Below are positions 1-12,241 of a stretch of 20,000 bases of DNA, piece after piece (position 1 is the stretch's first letter; every line of letters begins with the position of its first letter). The stretch comes from an uncultured virus (IMG/VR IMGVR_UViG_3300046782_000157) (taxonomy: Duplodnaviria > Heunggongvirae > Uroviricota > Caudoviricetes): the IMG/VR virus record IMGVR_UViG_3300046782_000157; one strand, 5' to 3'. A program made the translations under genes and the position numbers. A model generated the notes under the pieces. That model had not been told where the DNA came from. It made no database searches and saw only the letters and a program-made list of their open reading frames with translations.

Positions 1-24
1 GTGACAGAAAGATTGGCGGTTGTG

Positions 25-294
25 TCATTTGTGGATGACGCCGATCAGGCGCTCGATCGGGATGGACATCTGCTTGCCCTTGGCAGGGCCGTTTTTGGGC
101 CAGAACTTCACCCATCGGTTTCCATGTTCGTCGGTGAAGAACTCGACAGGCATCAATTCCCTCTTGGGGTTTCTCGGCCTGTTTACGGGCACAGTCTCTC
201 GTCTGATAAAGTAGATGGCGTTGCCATCTGACTCCTCGACCAAGACCGACTCGACGTTGTCCAAGACGATGTTCTCCTGTGGTGCTTCAACCAT
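25..294 (-). CDS. hypothetical phage protein (89 aa)
   Basis: ORF coupled to the upstream gene by a TAATG overlap at 294; same strand as the whole arm. Confidence 0.75.
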   Translation of the reverse strand: MVEAPQENIVLDNVESVLVEESDGNAIYFIRRETVPVNRPRNPKRELMPVEFFTDEHGNRWVKFWPKNGPAKGKQMSIPIERLIGVIHK

Positions 295-542
295 TATGCC
301 TCCGTGAACTTGTGAATCGCCACGGGATCGGGATCATGGGCGTCGAACAATTCAACACCGATGTCGTCGTTCTCGTAGCGATGGATGAATAAGCCGAAGA
401 TCACACGGTTTCCGATCTTGAAGATGAGGTCGTGCTCCCAATCCATTCGTTCTGGCAATACCGGGAGCTGGATCGCAGCTGTGACGCCAGCCTCATCATA
501 AGTAACGACCTTGACCTTGAGGAGCTTCGGCAGATTTGTCAC
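294..542 (-). CDS. hypothetical protein (82 aa, GTG start)
   Basis: ORF downstream of GAAGGAGGGTC SD (551-561); stop overlaps the next start. Confidence 0.75.
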   Translation of the reverse strand: MTNLPKLLKVKVVTYDEAGVTAAIQLPVLPERMDWEHDLIFKIGNRVIFGLFIHRYENDDIGVELFDAHDPDPVAIHKFTEA

Positions 543-550
543 TTCAGCAT

Positions 551-628
551 GACCCTCCTTCGTGTAATCGGAGTCGGGTGACTCCAGCCCCCGGTGACCG
601 CAGAGTCAACCGGGAGCTGCAACTACCC
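551..628 (-). repeat. intergenic G.G/U.G hairpin element, copy 1, plus SD
   Basis: minus strand GGGTAGTT-G-CAGCT-CCCGGTTGAC..GTCACCGGG-GGCTG-G-AGTCACCC; alternative hairpin GGAGTC-ACCC-GACTCC. Confidence 0.8.
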
Positions 629-958
629 TGACATCCGTCGTATGTATGCTTGTAACGGAGTGTCTCTGTTGTCTCTTTGTTCTTGGATAGTTGCCCATCG
701 ACAATTACCGGGTTCGTAGTTCCCGTCATTGTCGATTCTGTCGATCTGCTTGCCTGGTGGTCGTACTCCCATGTCCGCCAGGAAGTTCTCGAACTTGAGC
801 CAGCGTTCGCAAACCTTAATGCCTCGTGCTCCGTACTTGTAGTACGAATCGGCATTAGGATTCATGCAACGCTGTTTCATTGTCGTCCAGATTCGGTATG
901 TGCTGGTAGGCTTTCCACCCTCACAGTGACCATGAGTTATCTGGCCGCCGGGCTTCAT
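623..958 (-). CDS. HNH endonuclease-like protein
   Basis: YRIWTTMKQRC..YGARGIKVCERW..FENFLADMG..IDRIDNDGNYEPGNCRWAT..EQ..N is the typical pattern of phage HNH homing-endonuclease-like proteins. Confidence 0.85.
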   Translation of the reverse strand: MKPGGQITHGHCEGGKPTSTYRIWTTMKQRCMNPNADSYYKYGARGIKVCERWLKFENFLADMGVRPPGKQIDRIDNDGNYEPGNCRWATIQEQRDNRDTPLQAYIRRMSG

Positions 959-1179
959 CCGACTTGCTGGACTGGGTAGTGCGGCTTGATGTGCTTGTTG
1001 ATATAGCTGCCAACGCTTTGCGCGTTAGCCGCTACAACAGCACGTTGGTATGGCACGCCTGTGTAGGCGTACGTCTTGCCGCTCTTGTATGTGACGTACA
1101 TGATGCTCTTGTCACTATCCCAAGAGATCGACTCGACATTGCTGGAGTGTGGAACTGGAATCGGTCGTCGTGTGCTCAT
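955..1179 (-). CDS. KTSC-domain protein (74 aa; start corrected to ATG 1179)
   Basis: SSNVESISWD..MYVTYKSGKTYAYTGVP..AQSVGSYINKHIK matches the KTSC pattern; ATGA overlap with the upstream stop. Confidence 0.85.
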   Translation of the reverse strand: MSTRRPIPVPHSSNVESISWDSDKSIMYVTYKSGKTYAYTGVPYQRAVVAANAQSVGSYINKHIKPHYPVQQVG

Positions 1180-1373
1180 TTCGCACGCGCTTCCCCGGCC
1201 ATAAACCGCTTGGCTGCTTCCTTGGGCTTCATCCCCGCCATGTACCAGTCGTGCAACAGATCTTCGTCGCACTCGTCGCGCATGGTCAGATAGATTTCGC
1301 CCGTCTCAGCTTCGCGCATCTTGCTGACTTGATCGCCGAAGCGATCGCTCCAGTGAGAGAACGTGTAGCTCAT
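1176..1373 (-). CDS. hypothetical protein (65 aa)
   Basis: ATGA overlaps at both ends. Confidence 0.8.
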   Translation of the reverse strand: MSYTFSHWSDRFGDQVSKMREAETGEIYLTMRDECDEDLLHDWYMAGMKPKEAAKRFMAGEARAK

Positions 1374-1627
1374 GTGATCGAGTCCAGGAATTCTTGCGCT
1401 TCACTTGCTGAGCAAGGATTATCCCACTCATCGAACATGTCTCTAGCTAGCTCCCATGCTGTCGGCAGCCGCTTATTGCGGTACCACAGCAGACAGAGAG
1501 CGTCGAGCCACATGAATGGACGCTGATCACCAGGGCCACGCTCGACATCTGGGATGTTGTCAAGCTTGATGCCGGCCTCGCGCATCTCGCGCTCAGCTTC
1601 TTCCCAGGCGTGTTCGGGCTCGGTCAT
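1370..1627 (-). CDS. hypothetical acidic protein (85 aa)
   Basis: ATGA overlaps at both ends. Confidence 0.8.
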   Translation of the reverse strand: MTEPEHAWEEAEREMREAGIKLDNIPDVERGPGDQRPFMWLDALCLLWYRNKRLPTAWELARDMFDEWDNPCSASEAQEFLDSIT

Positions 1628-1827
1628 GTGATCACCTTGTTGGCCTTCAGCAGATCCACGATCGTCTGGCGGTCGGCGTTGACGTTACCAGTCCGAGCTA
1701 GCCAGAGACAGTAGTCGATGATCTCGCCTCGGTTCTTGTACTCAACGCTGAAGATCTCCTTGTTCGTGGATGTCTTCACCGTTACGACATGTCCGACACG
1801 AGTCACGCTAATGTTGACCTGAGCCAT
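1624..1827 (-). CDS. hypothetical protein (67 aa; start corrected to ATG 1827, MAQVNISV...)
   Basis: TGATG overlap with the upstream stop. Confidence 0.75.
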   Translation of the reverse strand: MAQVNISVTRVGHVVTVKTSTNKEIFSVEYKNRGEIIDYCLWLARTGNVNADRQTIVDLLKANKVIT

Positions 1828-2357
1828 CACCAGCCTTCTTTCGCCGCACAAATTGGGCCAATGCCGAGTGCGCGACTGCGCTCGTCGGTGAGCGTCCGTC
1901 CGCAGATCCCGCAATGGCCCAGCTCGCGCCCGTAGCGCATGCTAGCCTCTTTGGGGTCTTTGGCGATCTCCGTCATGATAGACTTCCTGTGCTCCGTGTT
2001 CTTGATCGGATAGCGTTCATCCGATGCACGGACGCTCAGGAATGTGTAGCCTGCCCACTTGCCCTCGGTCGGCTTGTCCACATGGTAGAACTTCAGGACA
2101 TCGTCCATCGGATCGACCACTGCGTACCTGCCGGCCGGGATGTCAGGCCAGTCTCGACTGACCTGCTTCTTAGGCAGTCCCTTCATGACGTCAATGATCC
2201 GGCTCGCTTCGCCCTTGCTGAGCTTTCGCGTGCCGGCATCGACCTTGGCGATGAAAGCAGCTTGCTTCTCCGTGATCTCATGCTTCTTGGCGAGATCGTG
2301 GAGATACTCAAGCTGATTCTCCGATGCTGGATCCTCTGTCCAGGCTGTCGTTGCCAT
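1827..2357 (-). CDS. DUF6011-like Zn-binding phage protein (176 aa; start ATG 2357)
   Basis: C-terminal CGICGRTLTDERSRALGIGPIC motif; SD GAAGGAGGG just upstream of ATG 2357. Confidence 0.8.
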   Translation of the reverse strand: MATTAWTEDPASENQLEYLHDLAKKHEITEKQAAFIAKVDAGTRKLSKGEASRIIDVMKGLPKKQVSRDWPDIPAGRYAVVDPMDDVLKFYHVDKPTEGKWAGYTFLSVRASDERYPIKNTEHRKSIMTEIAKDPKEASMRYGRELGHCGICGRTLTDERSRALGIGPICAAKEGW

Positions 2358-2359
2358 AT

Positions 2360-2428
2360 GCCCTCCTTCGGGTTTGGTACTCGGCTGAGCACCGGCCCAC
2401 CTCATTGCTGAGATGAGCCGCTGATCAA
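2360..2428 (-). repeat. intergenic hairpin element, copy 2, plus SD
   Basis: TGATCA-G-CGGCT-CATCTCA-GCAA-TGAGGTG-GGCCG-G-TGCTCA; alternative GGTGCTC-AGCC-GAGTACC. Confidence 0.9.
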
Positions 2429-2429
2429 G

Positions 2430-2609
2430 TCACTTCAGGCATTTGAGGCAAGTAATGGGATGTCGAGTCTTGACCAGCACCATTGGATGACCATTCCACG
2501 GCTTCACGGGCTGTCCGCAGACGGGTTCGCCCGATGAGTTCCGCTCATGGTACTTCAAGCTGCTGTCAAGACTGGGCGTGATCTGCATCCTGATTTGAAG
2601 AGTCACCAT
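2430..2609 (-). CDS. small His/Cys (putative Zn-binding) protein, 59 aa, not in the ORF track
   Basis: MVTLQIRMQITPSLDSSLKYHERNSSGEPVCGQPVKPWNGHPMVLVKTRHPITCLKCLK; TGATG overlap at 2609; fills the gap exactly. Confidence 0.75.
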   Translation of the reverse strand: MVTLQIRMQITPSLDSSLKYHERNSSGEPVCGQPVKPWNGHPMVLVKTRHPITCLKCLK

Positions 2610-2797
2610 CAGTTACGCCCGATTTCGCATGCCCGTGTCTGACATTCTGGATCGCTGGACTTAACTTGGTTGGCCAGCATCAGAATGTATTGCGGCCCGC
2701 CATGATAATCCCCACCACAGCAAGCTGTGCCATCGCTGCGAAGACTGTGCACTGTTCGCCACTTTCGATGAACAAGCACTTGACGTGTCTTCACCAT
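2609..2797 (-). CDS. small His/Cys (putative Zn-binding) protein, 62 aa (start ATG 2797)
   Basis: SD GAAGGAGGGTCAAATG; H-x9-CG...C-x4-C. Confidence 0.8.
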   Translation of the reverse strand: MVKTRQVLVHRKWRTVHSLRSDGTACCGGDYHGGPQYILMLANQVKSSDPECQTRACEIGRN

Positions 2798-2799
2798 TT

Positions 2800-2864
2800 G
2801 ACCCTCCTTCTGGTACTCGGCTGAGCACCACACCCTGCCTTCGAGGGCAGGATGCGCTACTCAG
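2800..2864 (-). repeat. intergenic hairpin element, copy 3, plus SD
   Basis: TGAGTA-G-CGCAT-CCTGCC-CTCGAA-GGCAGG-GTGTG-G-TGCTCA; alternative GGTGCTC-AGCC-GAGTACC. Confidence 0.9.
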
Positions 2865-2867
2865 TTG

Positions 2868-3047
2868 TTATCCGTGGTATTCATTGCTGAGGTGTGAGAC
2901 GATATGGATGTGAGTATGTACCGGAGCGTTTTCCAGAAGATGACGGATGTAGAACGTCGCTGTTGCCAGCTCCGTGAACTTCTTGAACGTGCCTTCGCCG
3001 GATTCGCCACCCATCCACACTTCGTACACAACGTGTGGTTCGTCCAC
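2868..3047 (-). CDS. hypothetical protein (59 aa; GTG start 3047)
   Basis: SD GAAGGAGGGTAGC directly before GTG. Confidence 0.75.
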   Translation of the reverse strand: MDEPHVVYEVWMGGESGEGTFKKFTELATATFYIRHLLENAPVHTHIHIVSHLSNEYHG

Positions 3048-3050
3048 GCT

Positions 3051-3116
3051 ACCCTCCTTCTGGTGCTCTTCTGAACACCGAGCCTCACAATTGTCTTTGT
3101 GAGACTCGCTACTCAG
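3051..3116 (-). repeat. intergenic hairpin element, copy 4, plus SD
   Basis: TGAGTA-G-CGAGT-CTCACAA-AGACAA-TTGTGAG-GCTCG-G-TGTTCA; alternative GGTGTTC-AGAA-GAGCACC. Confidence 0.9.
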
Positions 3117-3418
3117 CTGACTGTTTCTTGGTAGATGATACCTCTGATCATCGGGGCCCACTCGGGCGAGTCAGGCCCGTAGTTGGTCGCTGAGAACACG
3201 TCCATGTCGGCCCTGACGACACTCGGCGTCTCGTTGTCAGCTGCTGGTTCCTCGGGGTCGAGCTTCTGACGGATCTCTAGCTTGAACATCGGCGTGCCCA
3301 TGCTGTCGCAGATGATCATCTCGACATCACCTTCGGGAAGTGAGACTCTTGATACGAGAGAGAGATCATCGGCAACTTCGAGATACCACGGAGTTGGAAT
3401 CAGCTCGGGTTCATCCAT
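3113..3418 (-). CDS. hypothetical acidic protein (101 aa)
   Basis: SD GAAGGAGGGTCAGATG; stop TGA lies in the base of element 4. Confidence 0.85.
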   Translation of the reverse strand: MDEPELIPTPWYLEVADDLSLVSRVSLPEGDVEMIICDSMGTPMFKLEIRQKLDPEEPAADNETPSVVRADMDVFSATNYGPDSPEWAPMIRGIIYQETVS

Positions 3419-3420
3419 CT

Positions 3421-3489
3421 GACCCTCCTTCGTTGCGGTACTCGGATGAGTACCGCGCCCACCCCATGCGGGGAAGACGCGCTACTCAT
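3421..3489 (-). repeat. intergenic hairpin element, copy 5, plus SD
   Basis: ATGAGTA-G-CGCGT-CTTCCCC-GCAT-GGGGTGG-GCGCG-G-TACTCAT; alternative GCGGTACTC-ATCC-GAGTACCGC. Confidence 0.9.
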
Positions 3490-3623
3490 TTCTTTTTCTC
3501 GCAGTCGTCACAGATGCCGGCCACGATGTTGCTTCCGGTGATCTGTGCTTGAAATAGATCCTGCGATGTGACCTGGACGTACTTGAATTTGTGACACTTG
3601 GTGCAGTAGCCAACAAGTCTCAT
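3486..3623 (-). CDS. small CxxC..CxxC zinc-finger peptide, 45 aa, not in the ORF track
   Basis: MRLVGYCTKCHKFKYVQVTSQDLFQAQITGSNIVAGICDDCEKKK; ATGA overlap at 3620-3623; stop in element 5. Confidence 0.8.
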   Translation of the reverse strand: MRLVGYCTKCHKFKYVQVTSQDLFQAQITGSNIVAGICDDCEKKK

Positions 3624-3856
3624 CCTGGGCACTCGCTTTCAAGATGAACGAGATCGAGATCACCCTGGCTGTCGATCGCATCGTAGACTCTCAGCCCGAA
3701 CTTGATGGGCACGCGAATGCGATTTGGCTGGGTTTTCCAGGTTTTTACCTGGCCGTTCACTCGCCAGCGTTGACACGTACCGTCGGCATTCTTGTAGAAG
3801 TCATGATGCAGAACGTCGCCGGGCTTCAACGCCTTGGCTTGTTCTAGCGTGATCAT
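3620..3856 (-). CDS. hypothetical phage protein (78 aa)
   Basis: ATGA overlaps at both ends; RWRVNGQVKTWKT..R..VPIKFGL pattern resembles a common phage hypothetical family (from memory, not searched). Confidence 0.8.
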   Translation of the reverse strand: MITLEQAKALKPGDVLHHDFYKNADGTCQRWRVNGQVKTWKTQPNRIRVPIKFGLRVYDAIDSQGDLDLVHLESECPG

Positions 3857-4074
3857 GTCGACACCTGGCCCTGGGGCGAGATGCCGCCGTAGATCGGCTG
3901 ACCATGATCAGTCCAGTGCATCGTGAAGCACAGATAGTTGTTCGGCAGATCGAGTCCGCCCTTCTGAACAACCACGTTTTCAAGTTTCGGGTTGTTAAGA
4001 AGAACATCAATGCTTTTCTTCTGCGCTGTAGTCATGGTATTGAAAGCCTCTTGGGTCATCTTGACCTTGATCAC
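3853..4074 (-). CDS. hypothetical protein (73 aa)
   Basis: overlaps both neighbours; protein-like composition. Confidence 0.75.
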   Translation of the reverse strand: MIKVKMTQEAFNTMTTAQKKSIDVLLNNPKLENVVVQKGGLDLPNNYLCFTMHWTDHGQPIYGGISPQGQVST

Positions 4075-4454
4075 TTATGTGACCTCCATGCGACGATCTT
4101 GTCTCCGGGCAGGAAGATGACTGGCTTCTCCATCTGCGAGTGAAGAAAGCGATGCTTGTGCTTAACAACCTGTTCGCCCTCTGTCACCAGGCCACAGTCG
4201 CCCTCGATGTAGTACACACCGAATTGGAATGTGACGTAGTGCTCGAACTCTTGCCCTGACCATTTCGATTCAAGCTTGTTGTCTGGATCGAACGTCCAGG
4301 TGCCGAGATCCGAGAACTTCTTGCCAATCTGATATTCTCTGTCTGGATCTTCATCCATGTAGGCCACGGTGTAGCAGAAGTCAAGCATCTGCTGATCCCA
4401 GATGAGATCCTTGCGACGCTTACCCTTCCGCTCCACATATATGTTGAGTGGCAT
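4071..4454 (-). CDS. hypothetical protein (start corrected to ATG 4454, MPLNIYVE...)
   Basis: SD GAAGGAGGGCAGAATG. Confidence 0.75.
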   Translation of the reverse strand: MPLNIYVERKGKRRKDLIWDQQMLDFCYTVAYMDEDPDREYQIGKKFSDLGTWTFDPDNKLESKWSGQEFEHYVTFQFGVYYIEGDCGLVTEGEQVVKHKHRFLHSQMEKPVIFLPGDKIVAWRSHK

Positions 4455-4457
4455 TCT

Positions 4458-4522
4458 GCCCTCCTTCGTGGTGTCGTATGAACACCGACCCACTCACTGT
4501 TAGGTGAGTGAGTCGCTATTCA
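4458..4522 (-). repeat. intergenic hairpin element, copy 6, plus SD
   Basis: TGAATA-G-CGACT-CACTCAC-CTAACA-GTGAGTG-GGTCG-G-TGTTCA; alternative GGTGTTC-ATAC-GACACC (one bulge). Confidence 0.9.
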
Positions 4523-4807
4523 ATCTTCATCCGATCTCAGCTTCTCTGTGAGCAGTCTATGGATCTCGCGGAGGATAGCTTGCTGATCGGACGGACTGAA
4601 CCTCTGCTCCCAGATCGGCTTCTTGACTGGCGTCCTGGGTGGCTTTGCTGCTGGCTGTGGCTTCGGCTTGGCAGTGTACTCGCGAATGTCGTTTTTCCTG
4701 ATAACATCCTTGATCCCACGACCGTGCAATCGCCACCATGCCATGATGAGTGCGATGGTGAACATTGCTGCCGGGATGTCGATGAAGATGAACTTGACGT
4801 AACTCAT
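4520..4807 (-). CDS. membrane-anchored protein (95 aa; start corrected to ATG 4807, MSYVKFIF...)
   Basis: N-terminal hydrophobic helix, basic Pro-rich tail; ATGA overlap with the 4804-4947 ORF. Confidence 0.75.
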   Translation of the reverse strand: MSYVKFIFIDIPAAMFTIALIMAWWRLHGRGIKDVIRKNDIREYTAKPKPQPAAKPPRTPVKKPIWEQRFSPSDQQAILREIHRLLTEKLRSDED

Positions 4808-4947
4808 GATGAAGGCGATAGTGCTACTAGGAACACGTACACGCCTATGATCAAGAGCGCGATCACAATTCCCAACACGAGGAGTCGGGACGCCATCCAG
4901 AGAATGACGAACTGATCTTGCCATCGTTTTGGGATCTTGATGGTCAC
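4804..4947 (-). CDS. small single-pass membrane peptide, 47 aa, not in the ORF track
   Basis: MTIKIPKRWQDQFVILWMASRLLVLGIVIALLIIGVYVFLVALSPSS; GTGA and ATGA overlaps at its ends. Confidence 0.65.
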   Translation of the reverse strand: MTIKIPKRWQDQFVILWMASRLLVLGIVIALLIIGVYVFLVALSPSS

Positions 4948-4981
4948 CTTACATCGATGCTGTTCCCGAGTGGTTTCATTT

Positions 4982-5053
4982 GACCCTCCTTCGGATGATG
5001 CTCATTTGAGCACCCGCCAACACACTCTGCGATGTGCCAGCGGCTGATCAAAT
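4982..5053 (-). repeat. intergenic hairpin element, copy 7, plus SD
   Basis: ATTTGATCA-G-CCGCT-GGCACAT-CGCAGA-GTGTGTT-GGCGG-G-TGCTCAAAT; alternative GGTGCTC-AAAT-GAGCATC. Confidence 0.9.
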
Positions 5054-5281
5054 ACGAACAGCGATGAAGTCTCGCAGCCTTCCGTTGCCGATTAGGATTG
5101 TTGCGATCCACTGGTGGGTGTCGTTTCCTGTTCGGCGCTCGCGGATGATGCGTTGTCTGTTTCCCGCAAAATCATGCAAAGCGTGCATCGCGGTTGGTGC
5201 TTCGATGACAGCAACTTTGCGGAATGTCCCTGCGCCTCTGCCATCGTACCACGTTCTGATCTCGAATGTTCCCATTGTCAT
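5048..5281 (-). CDS. hypothetical protein (77 aa)
   Basis: ATGA overlap; stop in element 7. Confidence 0.75.
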   Translation of the reverse strand: MTMGTFEIRTWYDGRGAGTFRKVAVIEAPTAMHALHDFAGNRQRIIRERRTGNDTHQWIATILIGNGRLRDFIAVRI

Positions 5282-5649
5282 CTCAGCAGAACCTCCGGCC
5301 CGAACCAGATGTGGTTCATGACCGTGACGACACGATGTGCGATCTTATGAGCCATCCAACCATCACGATGAGGGTTGTCTTCTTCGAGGCCAGCGTTCTC
5401 TGCCTCGATCTCGATGTTGTCTGTGATCGGCACCATGAGCATCTTCATCAGCTCTGGTGGACATGCTTCCCAAATGCAAGCAGGGTTGCCCCACTTGGCA
5501 TCCTCGATCGCAATACGTTCTGCGAGCTTAGGCGTGAGCCCACGCTCGTGAACGCATTCCGAACAGAGCCATGTTCTGACGATGATGTTGTCGTCGGTGC
5601 TTTCCGTGACCATGGTTGTCGGACATCCGAAACACCTGATGATTGCCAT
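5278..5649 (-). CDS. CxxC..CxxC zinc-finger-containing protein (start ATG 5649)
   Basis: SD GAAGGAGGGTCAAATG; CFGC...CSEC. Confidence 0.8.
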   Translation of the reverse strand: MAIIRCFGCPTTMVTESTDDNIIVRTWLCSECVHERGLTPKLAERIAIEDAKWGNPACIWEACPPELMKMLMVPITDNIEIEAENAGLEEDNPHRDGWMAHKIAHRVVTVMNHIWFGPEVLLR

Positions 5650-5651
5650 TT

Positions 5652-5719
5652 GACCCTCCTTCGTTGTGATGAATACCAACCGCTCCGGGGGACAACTCCC
5701 GGAGCAGCTGCTAGTCACC
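5652..5719 (-). repeat. intergenic hairpin element, copy 8, plus SD
   Basis: GGTGACTA-G-CAGCT-GCTCCGGGAG-TTGT-CCCCCGGAGC-GGTTG-G-TATTCATC. Confidence 0.85.
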
Positions 5720-6005
5720 AGCTTTTGTACGGTGACAGCGCCTTGACGCGATCGAGATATTCCGAGGCGTCGTGAAGCTGTGTACCTTCTTCATCGCAAG
5801 TGTCGAACTGGTCGAACTTGTCGATGAAAGCCCACTCGCCAGCGTCACCCATGTAGATGTAGCCGACGAGTCTGCCGTCAATCTCGTACACGTAGCACTC
5901 GTAGTTCGTGTCGATGTCTGGGTAATCACCAATGATGTCTTTGGCATACAGCTCTGCTGTGTGCTCTAGATCCTGACGAAACTCAGACTCAGTCATTTCT
6001 TTCAT
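5715..6005 (-). CDS. small, highly acidic protein (96 aa)
   Basis: 24 Asp/Glu versus 8 Lys/Arg by hand count; ATGA overlap; stop in element 8. Confidence 0.85.
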   Translation of the reverse strand: MKEMTESEFRQDLEHTAELYAKDIIGDYPDIDTNYECYVYEIDGRLVGYIYMGDAGEWAFIDKFDQFDTCDEEGTQLHDASEYLDRVKALSPYKSW

Positions 6006-6205
6006 GGGATCTGCTTGACGAAGACGGCTGCTCTGAACTTGGTGTCAACGCGATTGAAGCCGTGGTTGATCAGCTTCTCGATCAGACGTTCACCGTCGTC
6101 TACGTGAATGATCTTGACGGATTCGATCTCTTTCTGATCGATGATGGACACGACTTTCACTTGCTTGTCGCTGACCGGGATCAGTGAAACGCGCTTAACG
6201 CTCAC
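6002..6205 (-). CDS. hypothetical protein (67 aa, GTG start)
   Basis: GTGA/ATGA overlaps at both ends. Confidence 0.8.
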   Translation of the reverse strand: MSVKRVSLIPVSDKQVKVVSIIDQKEIESVKIIHVDDGERLIEKLINHGFNRVDTKFRAAVFVKQIP

Positions 6206-6423
6206 GCTGTCACCTGATCCTTTGTGATCCAGAGCTGGCCGGAACCTGTGCCCAAGCTGTCGTACGCTCGATACAGCTTCCAGTGCTTATCGCAGCCATG
6301 ACCCCACGGCCCGTAACGAGTTTTGAAGTCGTACGGCCCTGGTGTCTTCATGCCTTCTTGATTGCAGAAATCGCAATCGGGAATGCGAGGCACGACGCAG
6401 ACTTTTCCCTTTTCTGCTTTCAT
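6202..6423 (-). CDS. small putative Zn-binding phage protein (73 aa)
   Basis: CDFC...YDFKTRYGPW...CDKH...LGTGSGQ; SD upstream. Confidence 0.8.
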   Translation of the reverse strand: MKAEKGKVCVVPRIPDCDFCNQEGMKTPGPYDFKTRYGPWGHGCDKHWKLYRAYDSLGTGSGQLWITKDQVTA

Positions 6424-6430
6424 TCTGTGC

Positions 6431-6499
6431 GACCCTCCTTCGTTTTGGTGGTTTGAACACCAGCCCTGTCGGATTATATCTGACAGAGCTGCTACTCAA
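6431..6499 (-). repeat. intergenic hairpin element, copy 9, plus SD
   Basis: TTGAGTA-G-CAGCT-CTGTCAGAT-ATA-ATCCGACAG-GGCTG-G-TGTTCAA; short alternative TGGTG..CACCA. Confidence 0.9.
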
Positions 6500-6819
6500 T
6501 ACCTGCTTTTCGAGACGAGCTTGCCGTTGTCGAAGCAGAACTGATAGCTGCCGTTCTGGCTGAGAATGCCGTAGTAGATACAACGGCTGTTCAATGTGCC
6601 GCCGTAGCCACCGACAGTTGTGTCGTCGCTGCTCTGAGGACTGCCGAACGAGCTTCTCACGTAGCTTTCGCTGACGCCAATTGGCATGATAGCGAAAGCA
6701 TTGGGATCGACCTGAGCACTTGACTTATCGCTCGCGTCGGTGATCCCGTGAAGTGCGAATGCTCCACCGCCTACAAAGAGGCTGAGTAGCAGCAGAATGG
6801 TGATGAATGCGCCTTTCAT
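6496..6819 (-). CDS. exported/membrane-anchored protein with SmpA/BLIP-like pattern (start ATG 6819)
   Basis: signal-like MKGAFITILLLLSLFVGGGAFA; F..MPIGVS..YV...FGSP...CIYYG....YQFCFDNGKLVSK. Confidence 0.7.
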   Translation of the reverse strand: MKGAFITILLLLSLFVGGGAFALHGITDASDKSSAQVDPNAFAIMPIGVSESYVRSSFGSPQSSDDTTVGGYGGTLNSRCIYYGILSQNGSYQFCFDNGKLVSKSRY

Positions 6820-6824
6820 TTTAC

Positions 6825-6909
6825 GACCTTCCTTCGTTTTGTTTTTATTTGGTTCTGTGTCTGCTGACACAAGCCGCTACACGTTGTCCTGAGTAGCAGC
6901 TTCTATCAG
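6825..6909 (-). repeat. intergenic hairpin element, copy 10, plus SD
   Basis: CTGATA-G-AAGCT-GCTAC-TCAGGACAACGT-GTAGC-GGCTT-G-TGTCAG; alternative TGTGTC-AGCA-GACACA. Confidence 0.9.
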
Positions 6910-7226
6910 TTGACGATACTGTGATCCTTGATGCTGATCCAGCCGCATTCGCCTTCAATACACATCACGATTCCTCGCAATGTCGGTCTGCTGTCAAGCC
7001 CTTCGCCGCCGCCATAGCGGTTGCTAGGATCGAAATCACTGATCCAGACACAGATTTCATATCCGAGTTGCTCGGCGTAACAGTAGAAGATGATCTGATC
7101 ACCTTGGACACCAGCTACTGTCCAGTGAGGGCTGACATATTCGCCTTCATACTGATTGGCGATCCAGTCAGCTTTGACTTCGCGGTCAGTTGCTGTCCAA
7201 ACTTTTGCTATGAACTCTGGCTTCAT
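6906..7226 (-). CDS. hypothetical protein (106 aa; start corrected to ATG 7226, MKPEFIAK...)
   Basis: SD GAAGGAGGGCCAATG; stop in element 10. Confidence 0.8.
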   Translation of the reverse strand: MKPEFIAKVWTATDREVKADWIANQYEGEYVSPHWTVAGVQGDQIIFYCYAEQLGYEICVWISDFDPSNRYGGGEGLDSRPTLRGIVMCIEGECGWISIKDHSIVN

Positions 7227-7228
7227 TG

Positions 7229-7298
7229 GCCCTCCTTCGTTTTTGTGTTCTGTAGTACAAGCCGCGTCGGTTGTCCACGACGCAGCTTCTGCTACAGA
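7229..7298 (-). repeat. intergenic hairpin element, copy 11, plus SD
   Basis: TCTGTAGCA-G-AAGCT-GCGTCG-TGGACAAC-CGACGC-GGCTT-G-TACTACAGA. Confidence 0.9.
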
Positions 7299-7390
7299 TG
7301 TCCGACTGCGCGCCCAATGAGTGCGCAGATGATGACGACGATTGGCGCAGCCGTGATATACGTTGGCCAAGCATCTTTCCACTTGTACAT
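7292..7390 (-). CDS. small membrane peptide, 32 aa (MYKWKDAWPTYITAAPIVVIICALIGRAVGHL)
   Basis: SD AAGGAAGGT before ATG 7390; stop TAG in element 11. Confidence 0.7.
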   Translation of the reverse strand: MYKWKDAWPTYITAAPIVVIICALIGRAVGHL

Positions 7391-7394
7391 GTGT

Positions 7395-7455
7395 ACCTTC
7401 CTTTGTTTTTTATCGTTCAAGGCCGAGCGGGTTGTCCTTCGCTCGACCTTCAACG
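7395..7455 (-). repeat. intergenic hairpin element, copy 12, plus SD
   Basis: CGTT-G-AAGGT-CGAGCG-AAGGACAACC-CGCTCG-GCCTT-G-AACG. Confidence 0.85.
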
Positions 7456-7464
7456 CGCGGCTTG

Positions 7465-7803
7465 TTACGCCGCGATATGCTTCGCACAGCGGTGAACTCG
7501 CTTGCCGTCTTTGAATAGCGACATGATCGCGAGTGCTCCGCACTTCTCGCCTTTGACCGCTTGTCCGTTATACGTTGAGCCCGCAGGCCCGAGTTTTGTA
7601 CGCTTCGTGCGCTTCTTCTTGAAGAACACTGTCGTCGTTTTGCCTACGAATGCGTCGCACGCTTCGGCGACTGCTAGCTCGCGGTCGATTGCGGGCGTAG
7701 CGGTTGCTCCGCTTATTCTTGAATCCCGGCTTTGTCCCGGGCTTCTTGCGGACTTCGTCGATACCGGCCCTCTGCTTTTTGCCGGCTTTTTACGTTTTGC
7801 CAC
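7465..7803 (-). CDS. basic hypothetical protein (112 aa, GTG start), possibly nucleic-acid binding
   Basis: SD GAAGGAGGGTCAGTG; Lys/Arg rich; C-terminal KCG...CAKH. Confidence 0.8.
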   Translation of the reverse strand: MAKRKKPAKSRGPVSTKSARSPGQSRDSRISGATATPAIDRELAVAEACDAFVGKTTTVFFKKKRTKRTKLGPAGSTYNGQAVKGEKCGALAIMSLFKDGKRVHRCAKHIAA

Positions 7804-7986
7804 TGACCCTCCTTCGGGGCTTATTGAATTGCTCCTCGATTCGGATTATTCGGTTGAATCGAGGACGTGCGGAAGCGGGACGTACGCTTACACGGGGGTT
7901 TTTGACGGCGTGCTTATGCCTTGCCGCTTTTCCCGCTCGGGTGGTGCGTCCCTCCTCCTTCGGTCGCTTAGGCGCGACCGGGGAGG

Positions 7987-8013
7987 GGTCGAGAGAATCG
8001 GATTCTCTCGACC
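7987..8013. repeat. perfect 13-1-13 palindrome GGTCGAGAGAATC-G-GATTCTCTCGACC
   Basis: read directly; a related copy lies at 8530-8560. Confidence 0.9.
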
Positions 8014-8031
8014 TCCCCCGCTCGATCCCTG

Positions 8032-8406
8032 CTAGGCGCGAGCCTTACGATACGCGCCGGACGCGAGCCGTCCCGGTCGCTTCGCGGCTACCGCGTAGCC
8101 GCCGAGGCGGTCTACGTTCGCCCGGGTCGGGCGGAACCCGAAGACGATCGGGAGGGCGTACGCTCGGAGATCCGTCGGCGACTCGGCGAGTACCGCCCGA
8201 ACGTCGGCCGCGCGTACGTCTTCGATCCGCTCGAACGAGCCGACCCGACTCGGGATTAGACCCGCGTCGCGGCGAGCCGCGTAAGAGATCTCGCGAGTCG
8301 ACCACTTCTTCTCGCCGCCGTAAACGGCCGCGTCGATCTCGGCGTCGGTCTTTCCGGCCGCCGCGAGCTTCGCGATTTTGTTCTCGTTACTTTTACTTAC
8401 GGACAT
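8032..8406 (-). CDS. first gene of the leftward arm, hypothetical (124 aa)
   Basis: SD CGAAGGAGG followed by AACGAA-ATG; Ala/Arg-rich, protein-like sequence. Confidence 0.8.
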   Translation of the reverse strand: MSVSKSNENKIAKLAAAGKTDAEIDAAVYGGEKKWSTREISYAARRDAGLIPSRVGSFERIEDVRAADVRAVLAESPTDLRAYALPIVFGFRPTRANVDRLGGYAVAAKRPGRLASGAYRKARA

Positions 8407-11556: not shown

Positions 11557-11581
11557 CATCTAACCAATGAAAGGAGAGCAG

Positions 11582-12241
11582 ATGCGAAAGATCATTGTGG
11601 CGCTGGCAGTGGCCGGTGCTACGTTCGGGATCGCGACCGCAGTCAGCGCGAGCATCCCAAGCCCCAACGGCGTGTTTCATGGTTGTTATGCTCTGCACAA
11701 CCAGACGACCGACAAGGGCGTTCTGCGCTTGGTCAACTTCGATCAAGGCGAGGGTTGCCGCTTCTATGAGGCACCAGTCGCGTGGAACAAGGCAGGCCCG
11801 ACTGGCCCCAAGGGGGCAACAGGCCCGCCTGGCCCAAGAGGCCCAACCGGCAAGCCAGGCCCAACTGGCCCGAAAGGCCCCAAAGGAACAACTGGGCCGA
11901 AGGGTGCGACAGGCCCGCCAGGCCCGAAGGGCGTCACTGGTGCTCCGGGGCCAAAGGGCGCCACTGGTGCTCCTGGCCCCAAGGGTGCTACTGGGCCCAA
12001 AGGCCCGACAGGGATGAGAGGCCCAACCGGGCCCAAAGGCCCAACCGGCCCCAGAGGGCCAACGGGCACTGGTCAGCGTGGAGCGACTGGGCCAACAGGC
12101 CCAGGTGGGAAAGACGATGACGACAACTTCACCATCCTGCCGGTCTGCGAGAACACGTCGTCTGGTGAACTGCACGTCAGTCCGCCCCACAGCTGTACAG
12201 GCCAGGACGAGATCATCATCCATCTCGTGAAGGCACCATAA
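11582..12241 (+). CDS. collagen-like protein with N-terminal signal peptide
   Basis: [32 protein letters not shown]; 30 uninterrupted Gly-X-Y triplets plus 5 more. Confidence 0.9.

What the first reader, a model, noticed from the sequence alone, without database searches (positions are those of the whole stretch)
2375..2829. A second, mutually exclusive hairpin overlaps the 3' arm of the element (switch or post-cleavage 5' cap)
Seen: starting one base before the 3' G of the G.G mismatch, a second hairpin can form: GGAGTC/GACTCC (1), GGTGCTC/GAGTACC (2 and 3, identical 19-mers at 2375-2393 and 2811-2829), GGTGTTC/GAGCACC (4), GGTACTC/GAGTACC (5), GGTGTTC/GACACC (6), GGTGCTC/GAGCATC (7), TGTGTC/GACACA (10; compensatory U-A end). 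It is short or weak in 8, 9 and 11 and not seen in 12. Its 5' arm is the 3' strand of the basal stem, so both cannot coexist, and it ends shortly before the SD. Inference: either cleavage next to the G.G releases an mRNA whose 5' end refolds into a protective stem, or a ribosome terminating at the upstream stop melts the basal stem and flips the fold, coupling translation to processing.
Basis: partly seen in the sequence, partly recalled or inferred. Interest (0 to 1): 0.75.

Follow-up and report, generated by a model that had tools for sequence, protein, structure and literature searches.

The report
Two-state hairpin between phage early genes
Between the early genes of an uncultured soil phage, a long RNA hairpin that buries the upstream stop codon can refold its 3' strand into a small second hairpin just before the next ribosome-binding site; both folds are conserved by compensating mutations, but what the switch does is untested.

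Summary
On the minus strand, 8 of the 12 intergenic elements in the window have a 6-9 bp second hairpin (hp2). Two have a weak one and two have none.

hp2 uses the 3' strand of the basal stem (R2) plus a downstream segment (R3), so it excludes the basal stem.

I collected 56 non-identical elements from several phage lineages:
- The G.G mismatch is present in 56 of 56.
- hp2 has a predicted energy of -5 kcal/mol or better in 46 of 56.
- The 3' G is paired inside hp2 in 49 of 56.

R3 matches its own R2. Matched pairs fold to a mean of -8.4 kcal/mol against -5.1 when tails are swapped (0 of 1000 permutations). All 7 hp2 pairs show changes on both sides.

The upstream stop codon lies in the 5' basal strand, starting 5-9 nt before the 5' G in 46 of 55 elements. 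A terminating ribosome must therefore open the basal stem.

The two folds are roughly equal in energy. The Shine-Dalgarno sequence (SD) is not unmasked by the switch.

The family is not in Rfam. It is absent from the two isolated phages I tested.

Function is inferred. My best guess is a T7-like processing and stability signal whose downstream product refolds into a 5' hairpin (0.4). The main rival is a switch driven by translation termination (0.3). No RNA data exist.

The parts
552..626 (-). Element e1. Long hairpin 578-626, with the 5' G at 620 and the 3' G at 584. hp2 at 569-586 (GGAGTC / GACTCC core). SD starts at 560.
2360..2427 (-). Element e2. Long hairpin 2386-2427, with the G.G at 2421 and 2392. 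hp2 at 2376-2393 (GGTGCTC / GAGTACC). SD starts at 2368. The true upstream stop is the TGA at 2430-2432.
2801..2863 (-). Element e3. Long hairpin 2822-2863, with the G.G at 2857 and 2828. hp2 at 2811-2830 (8 bp). SD starts at 2809.
3051..3115 (-). Element e4. Long hairpin 3072-3115. hp2 at 3062-3079 (GGTGTTC / GAGCACC). SD starts at 3059.
3422..3488 (-). Element e5. Long hairpin 3447-3488. hp2 at 3435-3456 (9 bp, GGTACTC / GAGTACC core). SD starts at 3430.
4458..4522 (-). Element e6. Long hairpin 4479-4522. hp2 at 4468-4489 (GGTGTT / GACACC core). SD starts at 4466.
4983..5050 (-). Element e7. Long hairpin 5007-5050. hp2 at 4997-5014 (GGTGCTC / GAGCATC). SD starts at 4991.
5653..5717 (-). Element e8. 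Long hairpin 5670-5717. Only a 4-bp helix in another register at 5663-5680 (-2.9 kcal/mol). Effectively no hp2.
6432..6498 (-). Element e9. Long hairpin 6454-6498. Weak hp2 at 6446-6462 (5 bp, 7-nt loop). It is absent in the orthologous element of the second genome copy.
6826..6909 (-). Element e10. Long hairpin 6864-6909. hp2 at 6855-6872 (TGTGTC / GACACA core). SD starts at 6834.
7229..7295 (-). Element e11. Long hairpin 7252-7295 with a GGACAAC loop. No hp2.
7395..7457 (-). Element e12. Long hairpin 7412-7457 with a GGACAAC loop. No hp2. The stop is a TAA 14-16 nt before the 5' G.

Best explanation
Each element is a two-state punctuation signal in the polycistronic early mRNA.

State A is one long hairpin. 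It has a basal stem R1:R2, an invariant G.G mismatch, and an upper stem of about 12 bp.

State B keeps the upper stem. R2, together with the 3' G and the base before it, pairs instead with a downstream segment R3 to make hp2. hp2 sits 1-27 nt before a very strong SD.

hp2 is thus the fallback partner of R2 whenever R1 is taken away.

I think the selected use is most likely processing. A double-strand-specific host nuclease (RNase III-like, as at the phage T7 early junctions) would cut state A at or beside the G.G. The upstream cistron would then keep the upper stem as a 3' hairpin. The downstream cistron would begin with hp2 flush at its new 5' end, followed by the strong SD. That is the architecture known to protect mRNAs from 5'-end-dependent decay.

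A ribosome terminating at the stop codon inside R1 should cause the same refolding transiently.

Shown here: both helices, their covariation, their mutual exclusivity, the position of the stop codon, and the free SD.
Inferred: the cleavage, its site, the enzyme, and the stabilising effect.
For: Both helices are under selection.
- The long hairpin has 93.2% of cells paired against 58.4% shuffled, and a covariation score of 0.798 against 0.199 (0 of 500 shuffles).
- hp2 alone has 89.4% against 75.0%, with 47 against 13.1 double-sided changes (0 of 500). Slid controls score 0.077 or less.
- The alignment-free tail swap reached the observed value in 0 of 1000 permutations.

The G.G is invariant in 56 of 56 elements. 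In hp2 the 3' G pairs with C (44) or U (5).

The 5' edge of hp2 sits beside the G.G. Offset -1 is paired in 47 of 56. Offset -2 is paired in only 21 of 56, which is the 0.375 expected for random pairs. Offset -3 is paired in 9 of 56.

Many pairs are G.U, which fits the mRNA-sense strand only.

The long hairpin has a median of 18 bp plus the mismatch, with about 12 bp above the G.G. That is about two helical turns, the size recalled for RNase III substrates.

The two box pairs just above the G.G are strongly paired and G+C-rich. This fits the E. coli rule that the positions between the two cuts are well paired (PMC6212723, passages seen).

The SD is predicted free in both states.

A 5' stem-loop plus a strong ribosome-binding site is an established stabiliser. 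The evidence seen is the reference titles and passages in PMC3997798.

hp2 also occurs in three elements that are not followed directly by an SD (G000 55270, G000 120301 and L001 8984). This argues against a role tied to SD proximity.
Against: No RNA data exist, so no 5' end has been mapped.

The host, and therefore its nucleases, is unknown. The nearest isolates are Arthrobacter and Microbacterium phages at about 41% DnaE identity.

In 16 of 56 elements hp2 is predicted to beat the basal stem by at least 1 kcal/mol in the uncut RNA. In those elements the long duplex that a double-strand nuclease would need may rarely form.

Ten of 56 elements lack hp2 by the -5 kcal/mol cut. In G000 these are e8, e11 and e12 with their second-copy counterparts, plus two further second-copy elements, mostly at the promoter-proximal end. 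The model does not explain this.

The near-fixed position of the stop codon inside R1 is not required by a pure processing model.

E. coli RNase III sites are not centred on a G.G mismatch (PMC6212723, passages seen).
Confidence: 0.4

Rival explanations
1. A switch driven by translation termination is the selected function. The ribosome terminating at the stop codon inside R1 unzips the basal stem, the G.G and two to three box pairs. R2 is caught by R3, which holds the element open. This either keeps translated messages from being cut at the long duplex, or stacks hp2 on the upper stem so that the next SD lies beside the terminating ribosome and re-initiation is favoured.
For: The upstream stop starts at -6 from the 5' G in 31 of 55 elements, at -9 to -5 in 46 of 55, and within -16 to -1 in all 55.

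As recalled, the mRNA channel keeps about 13 nt from the P-site codon single-stranded. A ribosome at a -6 stop would therefore free exactly the bases that make the 5' arm of hp2.

Masking the 5' side up to three bases past the 5' G raises predicted hp2 occupancy from 0.22 to 0.87.

The two states lie within 3 kcal/mol of each other in 31 of the 46 elements that have hp2.

Elements without hp2 have the shortest distances from the 3' G to the SD.

The topology of region 1:2 against 2:3 is that of known ribosome-toggled attenuators. The review PMC12548453 draws this analogy (passages seen).
Against: There is no predicted output. SD accessibility is the same in both states (0.62 against 0.64). No terminator-like U tract follows either hairpin: 0 minus-strand terminator-like sites were found in window 1-7500.

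The very strong SD should recruit ribosomes on its own.

The invariance of the 5' G is unexplained.

hp2 is also present where no SD follows.

Near-equal energies are expected simply because both helices use the same strand. The two energies do not correlate (r=0.08).
Confidence: 0.3
2. The element is a binding site for a phage or host protein that reads the G.G with its flanking pairs. hp2 would be the competing fold that sets how much of the RNA is in the bound form. An example would be a translational repressor or antiterminator acting on early messages.
For: The G.G is strictly invariant (56 of 56), flanked by A-U or U-A below and mostly C-G above.

A U.G wobble five pairs above the G.G is kept in all 29 elements first collected from this record.

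The first early gene encodes a very basic protein of no known family.
Against: No candidate RNA-binding protein was identified by any family search.

The U.G wobble is not kept in the related phages.

Nothing ties hp2 to binding.
Confidence: 0.12
3. hp2 has no function of its own. R3 would be a leftover copy of R1 created by the recombination that shuffles cassettes at these repeats, and it pairs with R2 only because R1 does.
For: R3 resembles R1. Natural variants have deletion and replacement joints at the elements, and one runs through the identical 19-mers of e2 and e3.
Against: R3 differs from R1 where it matters. It carries C or U opposite the 3' G, where R1 always has G. It often uses a different base from R1 at wobble-tolerant positions. 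At offset +3, R1 is mismatched with R2 in 17 of 56 elements, whereas the aligned hp2 pair there is a standard pair in 41 of 50 cells.

hp2 exists with unrelated arm sequences, 22 distinct 5' arms in all, in other lineages.
Confidence: 0.05
4. The structure acts in DNA, as a cruciform or a single-stranded DNA hairpin serving as a replication, packaging or promoter signal.
For: Hairpin promoters on single-stranded DNA are known from phage N4 (recalled).
Against: The many G.U pairs would be A.C mismatches on the other strand.

Every copy sits between a stop codon and an SD on the coding strand.

No phage RNA polymerase was found among the proteins scanned.

The sigma-70-type promoter consensus matched none of the elements.
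Confidence: 0.03

Closest known systems
RNase III processing signals between the early genes of coliphage T7 (R0.3, R0.5, R1, R1.1, R1.3). Recalled. General E. coli RNase III rules come from PMC6212723 (passages seen).
   Same: Multi-copy hairpins of about two helical turns sit between the genes of one phage early operon. The stem is interrupted by a non-Watson-Crick spot. The upper stem could remain as a 3' hairpin on the upstream message.
   Different: No cleavage has been shown here. The interruption is a single invariant G.G and not an internal loop. The stop codon lies inside the stem. The 3' strand has a conserved alternative partner (hp2), which to my knowledge is not part of the T7 signals.
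Ribosome-toggled alternative hairpins of attenuators (trp leader, ermC and cat leaders). Recalled. The analogy is drawn in review PMC12548453 (passages seen).
   Same: Three segments are arranged so that 1:2 and 2:3 pairings exclude each other. A ribosome sits on segment 1.
   Different: The ribosome would be a terminating one at the end of a full-length gene, not one stalled on a leader peptide. The 2:3 helix neither frees an SD nor forms or blocks a terminator.
5' stem-loop plus strong ribosome-binding-site stabilisers of Gram-positive mRNAs (aprE leader, SP82 polypurine stabiliser, hbs). Seen as titles in the reference list and passages of PMC3997798.
   Same: A hairpin lies directly upstream of a very strong SD.
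   Different: Those hairpins sit at the true 5' end. Here that would need a cut that has not been shown.
[quoted passage not shown] PMC3203893 and PMC12699233 (passages seen).
   Same: There is a conserved SD-containing motif before non-structural genes. About half are preceded by an imperfect inverted repeat with a variable spacer. The function is unknown.
   Different: The sequences are different. ESAS arms in phage Anaya carry no G.G and no second hairpin. The covariance model finds no match in the Anaya record.
PeSL (promoter-early stem-loop) cassettes of T4-type phages. PMC2839356 and PMC4122927 (search listing and start of abstracts only).
   Same: Repeated intergenic signals flank small early genes and mark where genes are gained, lost or swapped.
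   Different: No promoter consensus and no terminator-like U tract coincide with the elements. PeSLs are not described as two-state folds.
Alternative structures of phage lambda cIII mRNA (recalled).
   Same: A phage mRNA near a ribosome-binding site exists in two competing folds, and RNase III influences the balance.
   Different: It is a single site that controls SD exposure. Here there are many copies and the SD is free in both states.

Membership tests
T7-type RNase III processing signal | Intercistronic hairpin of about two helical turns in a phage polycistronic mRNA | tested here: met
   Median of 18 bp plus the G.G, range 12-22. All copies lie between a stop codon and an SD.
T7-type RNase III processing signal | Interruption of the stem (internal loop or mismatch) at the processing site | tested here: inconclusive
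   An invariant 1x1 G.G mismatch is present in 56 of 56 elements. Whether it marks a cut is unknown.
T7-type RNase III processing signal | Site-specific cleavage by host RNase III | not testable with these tools
   No RNA run holds the phage. The host is unknown.
Ribosome-toggled attenuator (trp / ermC type) | Two mutually exclusive helices sharing one strand, both conserved | tested here: met
Ribosome-toggled attenuator (trp / ermC type) | A ribosome is placed on the 5' segment | tested here: met
   The stop codon starts 5-9 nt before the 5' G in 46 of 55 elements. This is by geometry only.
Ribosome-toggled attenuator (trp / ermC type) | The alternative fold frees an SD, or makes or breaks a terminator | tested here: not met
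   The SD is unpaired at 0.62 against 0.64. There are 0 minus-strand terminator-like sites in window 1-7500.
Cluster K SAS/ESAS | The 13-nt SAS consensus and the 17-nt ESAS inverted repeats | tested here: not met
   The SD motif here is GAAGGAGGGT. The Anaya ESAS arms are unrelated. Model R1 gives 0 matches in the Anaya record.
PeSL cassette | An early promoter joined to a terminator-like stem-loop | tested here: not met
   The sigma-70-type scan gave 3 sites against 4.6 expected, none in an element. No terminator-like site was found on the minus strand. The host promoter type is unknown, so this is a weak test.
PeSL cassette | Marks the boundaries of gene insertions, deletions or replacements | tested here: met
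   Joints 2372->2809, 3434->7257, 6444->6863 and 5663->7257 in soil contigs.
Any Rfam family | A match to a curated covariance model | tested here: not met
   Only two weak chance-level matches at E<=1, and neither lies on hp2.

The most novel reading that the evidence does not exclude
These elements may be a widespread, undescribed class of ribosome-sensing intercistronic RNA switches in phages. Termination of one early gene would flip the 3' strand of a stop-codon-burying hairpin into a second hairpin, and so decide whether the junction is cut, or how the next gene is loaded with ribosomes. This would give each shuffled gene cassette its own built-in link between translation and message fate.
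Probability: 0.3. Interest if true: 0.8.

Novelty: new variant of a known kind. Interest (0 to 1): 0.62.

Why it matters
Phage early operons are long strings of small unknown genes. How their messages are punctuated, stabilised and translated is known in detail only for a few model phages.

Here a simple, uncatalogued RNA element shows covariation support for two mutually exclusive helices, with the stop codon of the upstream gene built into one of them. It recurs in several lineages of uncultured soil phages.

If the switch links termination or processing to the fate of the next cistron, it would be a compact, portable regulatory module. It would also be a natural counterpart of the RNA 'insulators' used in synthetic operons.

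The elements also mark where these phages gain and lose genes.

Tried and rejected
- RNA evidence: no RNA holder was listed among the 24 runs that hold the stretch. All are soil or rhizosphere DNA.
- Rfam at E<=1: nothing relevant.
- Megablast of window 1-8400 against isolated phages: no match.
- tRNA scan: none.
- Protein-led search with the DUF6011 protein: only 1 good relative among 13 loci.
- The first DNA pattern and three of the five viral hits of the second pattern (L017, L018 and the earlier L014) carried no element when scanned.
Of the matches I inspected (the top 45 of 122 ranked by fold energy), most fall in what looks like one conserved protein-coding gene. Only L030, L048, L090, L105, L110 and L114 were kept as family members.
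- Five model hits were dropped as doubtful before counting (L015:11075, window:7806, L087, L051, L074), as were the L021 rows, which near-duplicate L019.
- ermC-like SD unmasking: not predicted.
- A tuned energy balance between the two helices: no correlation, r=0.08. My first constrained energies (GA and GB) were confounded by flanking structure, so I replaced them with the minimal-sequence calculation.
- ESAS membership: rejected.
- Elements in Arthrobacter phage Wollypog: none.
- Sigma-70 promoter and intrinsic-terminator consensus at the elements: none.
- Mirror control, pairing R1 with the 30 nt upstream: a much weaker signal, -5.8 against -4.8 kcal/mol, with p<=0.05 in 11 of 56.
- Stop-codon calling by the longest upstream frame was error-prone (which also crashed). 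I redid it with a near-window rule. A few calls, such as L015:10658, may still be wrong.
- Earlier notes of this scan: none for this genome or for this sequence.

Full report
**Setting**

The window is part of a 129,757-base virus record made of two related phage genomes of about 65 kb joined head to tail. They are roughly 73-96% identical, block by block.

Window 1-8400 is the end of the first genome. It holds a leftward operon of small, mostly unknown early genes. From about 9600 onward the window holds the structural genes of the second genome: a collagen-like tail fibre, terminase, portal and protease.

Downstream of the early genes, on the same strand, lie replication genes. These include a DnaE-like polymerase, a primase-helicase and ThyX. 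No RNA polymerase was found among the proteins scanned.

The nearest isolated phages infect Arthrobacter, Microbacterium, Gordonia and Mycobacterium, at only 37-42% protein identity. The phage occurs in soil and rhizosphere metagenomes. The host is unknown.

**Anatomy of the element**

Reading the minus strand as RNA, each element has these parts in order:
- the stop codon of the upstream gene, lying in a 6-nt segment R1
- a G
- a 4-bp box
- a variable upper hairpin
- the other strand of the box
- a second G
- R2, typically TGYTCA, which pairs with R1
- a loop of about 4 nt
- R3, typically GAGYACC
- an A/C-rich spacer
- GAAGGAGGG, the Shine-Dalgarno sequence (SD)
- the start codon

R1:R2 is the basal stem. 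The two Gs face each other as a G.G mismatch. hp2 is formed by the base before the 3' G, the 3' G, the first five bases of R2, and R3.

I first collected 29 such elements from the record. A descriptor scan added three more. That scan found 32 minus-strand hits against 1-6 in shuffled genomes.

**Check of the observation**

Of the 12 elements in the window, 8 have an hp2 of 6-9 bp, with predicted energies from -7.7 to -16.7 kcal/mol. e9 has 5 bp and e8 has 4 bp in another register. e11 and e12 have none. The 5' arm of hp2 is the 3' strand of the basal stem, so the two helices exclude each other.

**Relatives**

A covariance model of the long hairpin plus SD (R1) found 70 matches at E<=0.1 in 100 sources totalling 749,461 bases. 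The matches fall in:
- both genome copies
- a third complete phage (L001, 9 copies)
- a more distant pair of contigs (L019 and L021, 7 copies each)
- a group of three metagenome contigs (L030, L048, L090)
- single short contigs (L105, L110)

L114 was added by the second model.

I dropped five doubtful hits and the L021 rows, then removed identical rows. This left 56 distinct elements.

The model finds nothing in Arthrobacter phage Wollypog or mycobacteriophage Anaya. Rfam has no such family.

**Is hp2 more than chance?**

In the 56 elements, the stretch from 4 nt before the 3' G up to the SD folds to -5 kcal/mol or better in 46. The 3' G is paired in 49.

Shuffling only the part after R2 gives p<=0.05 in 30 of 56, where 2.8 are expected. 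Mean energy is -8.4 against -4.5 kcal/mol.

Swapping tails between elements gives -5.14 +/- 0.32 against the observed -8.40 (0 of 1000). With one representative for each of the 22 distinct 5' arms the result is -9.31 against -4.56 (0 of 1000).

On an alignment fitted to the alternative fold (model R2), hp2 alone gives:
- 89.4% of cells paired against 75.0% shuffled
- 47 against 13.1 cells with changes on both sides
- a covariation score of 0.307 against 0.146 (0 of 500)
- slid controls of 0.077 or less
- all 7 pairs with a double-sided change

That alignment leans towards the structure, which is why I also ran the alignment-free test.

Unrelated arm sequences occur in the other lineages. Examples are a 10-bp GGAGCGCATA / TATGCGTTCT and a 9-bp GGAGTTCAG / CTGGATTCC in L019, and CGGTACC / GGTGCCG in L001.

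**Both folds are conserved**

The long hairpin has 93.2% of cells paired against 58.4% shuffled, and a covariation score of 0.798 against 0.199. All 17 pairs show double-sided changes.

The table anchored on the 3' G shows three-way covariation. At offset +1, R2 is U in 43 elements and A in 13. Both its R1 partner and its R3 partner change with it.

The G.G is invariant (56 of 56). In hp2 the same 3' G pairs with C (44) or U (5).

R3 is not a copy of R1. It has C or U where R1 has G. It often differs from R1 at wobble-tolerant positions. It pairs at offset +3, where R1 is mismatched in 17 of 56.

hp2 has a sharp 5' edge. Offset -1 is paired in 47 of 56. Offset -2 is paired in 21 of 56, which is the 0.375 chance level. 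Offset -3 is paired in 9 of 56.

The frequent G.U pairs place the structure on the mRNA-sense strand.

**Energetics**

On minimal sequences, the basal stem adds -8.1 kcal/mol and hp2 adds -6.5 kcal/mol on average to the upper hairpin.

Among the 46 elements with hp2, the difference between the two states has a median of +0.75 kcal/mol and a range of -6.6 to +6.3. It is within 3 kcal/mol in 31.

Over all 56, hp2 wins by at least 1 kcal/mol in 16 and the long hairpin wins in 32. The two energies do not correlate (r=0.08). There is therefore no sign of element-by-element tuning. Similar energies are expected because both helices use R2.

In unconstrained ensembles the mean probability of the basal stem is 0.71 and of hp2 is 0.22. 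With the 5' side masked up to three bases past the 5' G, hp2 rises to 0.87. SD accessibility stays the same, 0.62 against 0.64.

**Stop codon position**

The stop of the upstream gene starts at -6 from the 5' G in 31 of 55 elements, at -9 to -5 in 46, and within -16 to -1 in all 55. One element had no candidate. The codons are TGA in 37, TAG in 16 and TAA in 2 (a heuristic call).

As recalled, the ribosome keeps about 13 nt from the first P-site base single-stranded. A ribosome at a -6 stop must therefore open the basal stem, the G.G and two to three box pairs. That frees exactly the 5' arm of hp2.

**What it is not**

- Not an intrinsic terminator and not a sigma-70-type promoter by consensus.
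- Not the ESAS of cluster K phages.
- Not an SD-masking coupling device of the kind reviewed in PMC12548453.

**Mechanism**

The data show a conserved two-state RNA. They do not show what throws the switch or what follows.

I rank first (0.4) a T7-like processing signal. A double-strand-specific nuclease would cut the roughly two-turn hairpin (median 18 bp, about 12 bp above the G.G) beside the G.G. The upper stem would stay as a 3' hairpin on the upstream message. The downstream message would refold into hp2 flush with its new 5' end, next to a very strong SD. That layout is known to stabilise mRNAs.

This reading accounts for the invariant G.G, for the sharp 5' edge of hp2, and for hp2 at the three junctions that have no adjacent SD.

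Three facts count against it. There is no end mapping. In 16 elements hp2 should already win in uncut RNA. Ten elements lack hp2.

Second (0.3) is a termination-driven switch as the selected function. It rests on firmer first steps, namely the stop position and ribosome geometry. It lacks any predicted output and does not explain the 5' G.

Other readings are given as rivals.

**Population data**

Contigs from four other soil and rhizosphere runs show variants whose joints fall at the elements:
- loss of the two genes between e2 and e3, through the identical hp2/SD repeats
- replacements joining e5 to e11, e9 to e10 and e8 to e11
- absence of the HNH gene

So the elements are also cassette boundaries, as PeSLs are in T4-type phages (listing only).

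**Earlier notes of this scan**

AI notes from this scan, unchecked by me, describe stop-codon hairpins between early genes of other uncultured phages. Two of them describe a refolding small hairpin before the next ribosome-binding site. They are leads, not support.

**Literature**

My searches found no description of this element, or of a two-state stop-codon hairpin between phage genes. Those searches cover open-access text only.

Noticed in passing
whole record G000 (window = G000:56557-76556): The 129,757-base virus record is two related phage genomes of about 65 kb joined head to tail. They are collinear and 73-96% identical by block. The window spans the junction.
   Followed up: partly
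window 2372-2809, 3434-7257, 5663-7257, 6444-6863: Contigs from other soil and rhizosphere runs join these places directly or with 17-39 other letters. Genes between elements are therefore lost or replaced, with the joints at the SD/hp2 repeats.
   Followed up: partly
window 623-958 (-): The HNH endonuclease gene is skipped (628->954) in contigs of two runs, as expected for a mobile homing-type gene.
   Followed up: no
window 7252-7295, 7412-7457, 6864-6909 and 5670-5717 (-); L015; L001 3655 and 1506: The apical loops of the promoter-proximal elements share GGACAAC. The loops of e8, its ortholog and L001:3655 carry the complementary GTTGTCC. Loop-loop pairing in trans is conceivable.
   Followed up: no
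all 29 elements of G000 first collected: A U.G wobble directly above the 4-bp box is kept in all 29 copies in this record. It is not kept in the related phages L001 and L019.
   Followed up: partly
G000 55270 and 120301 (L016, L015); L001 8984: These three elements carry the G.G and a 6-10 bp hp2 but have unrelated arm sequences. They are followed not by an SD but by a roughly 29-nt imperfect palindrome, with the SD about 60 nt further on. This may be an operator or promoter at an operon boundary.
   Followed up: no
window 7803-7870 (-) and 7465-7803 (-): The first early gene has its own 9-bp leader hairpin, a spacer and the same SD, with no upstream gene. Its product is very basic and matches no family.
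   Followed up: no
window 540-552 (-): After the SD of e1 comes a 3-codon mini-ORF (ATG CTG AAG TGA). Its stop overlaps the GTG start of the 82-aa ORF at 294-542.
   Followed up: no
window 3486-3623 (-): A 45-aa ORF rich in Cys-x-x-Cys motifs ends on the TGA inside e5. It is missed by ORF lists with a 50-aa cut-off.
   Followed up: no
30 nt upstream of R1 in the 56 elements: In the mirror control, R1 with the 30 nt upstream folds slightly better than shuffles (-5.8 against -4.8 kcal/mol, with p<=0.05 in 11 of 56). Some copies may also have a partner for R1 inside the upstream gene.
   Followed up: partly
window 11567-12241 (+): A tail-fibre-like protein with a collagen triple-helix repeat, seen in the DNA as a 9-nt periodic repeat at 11766-12084.
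   Followed up: no
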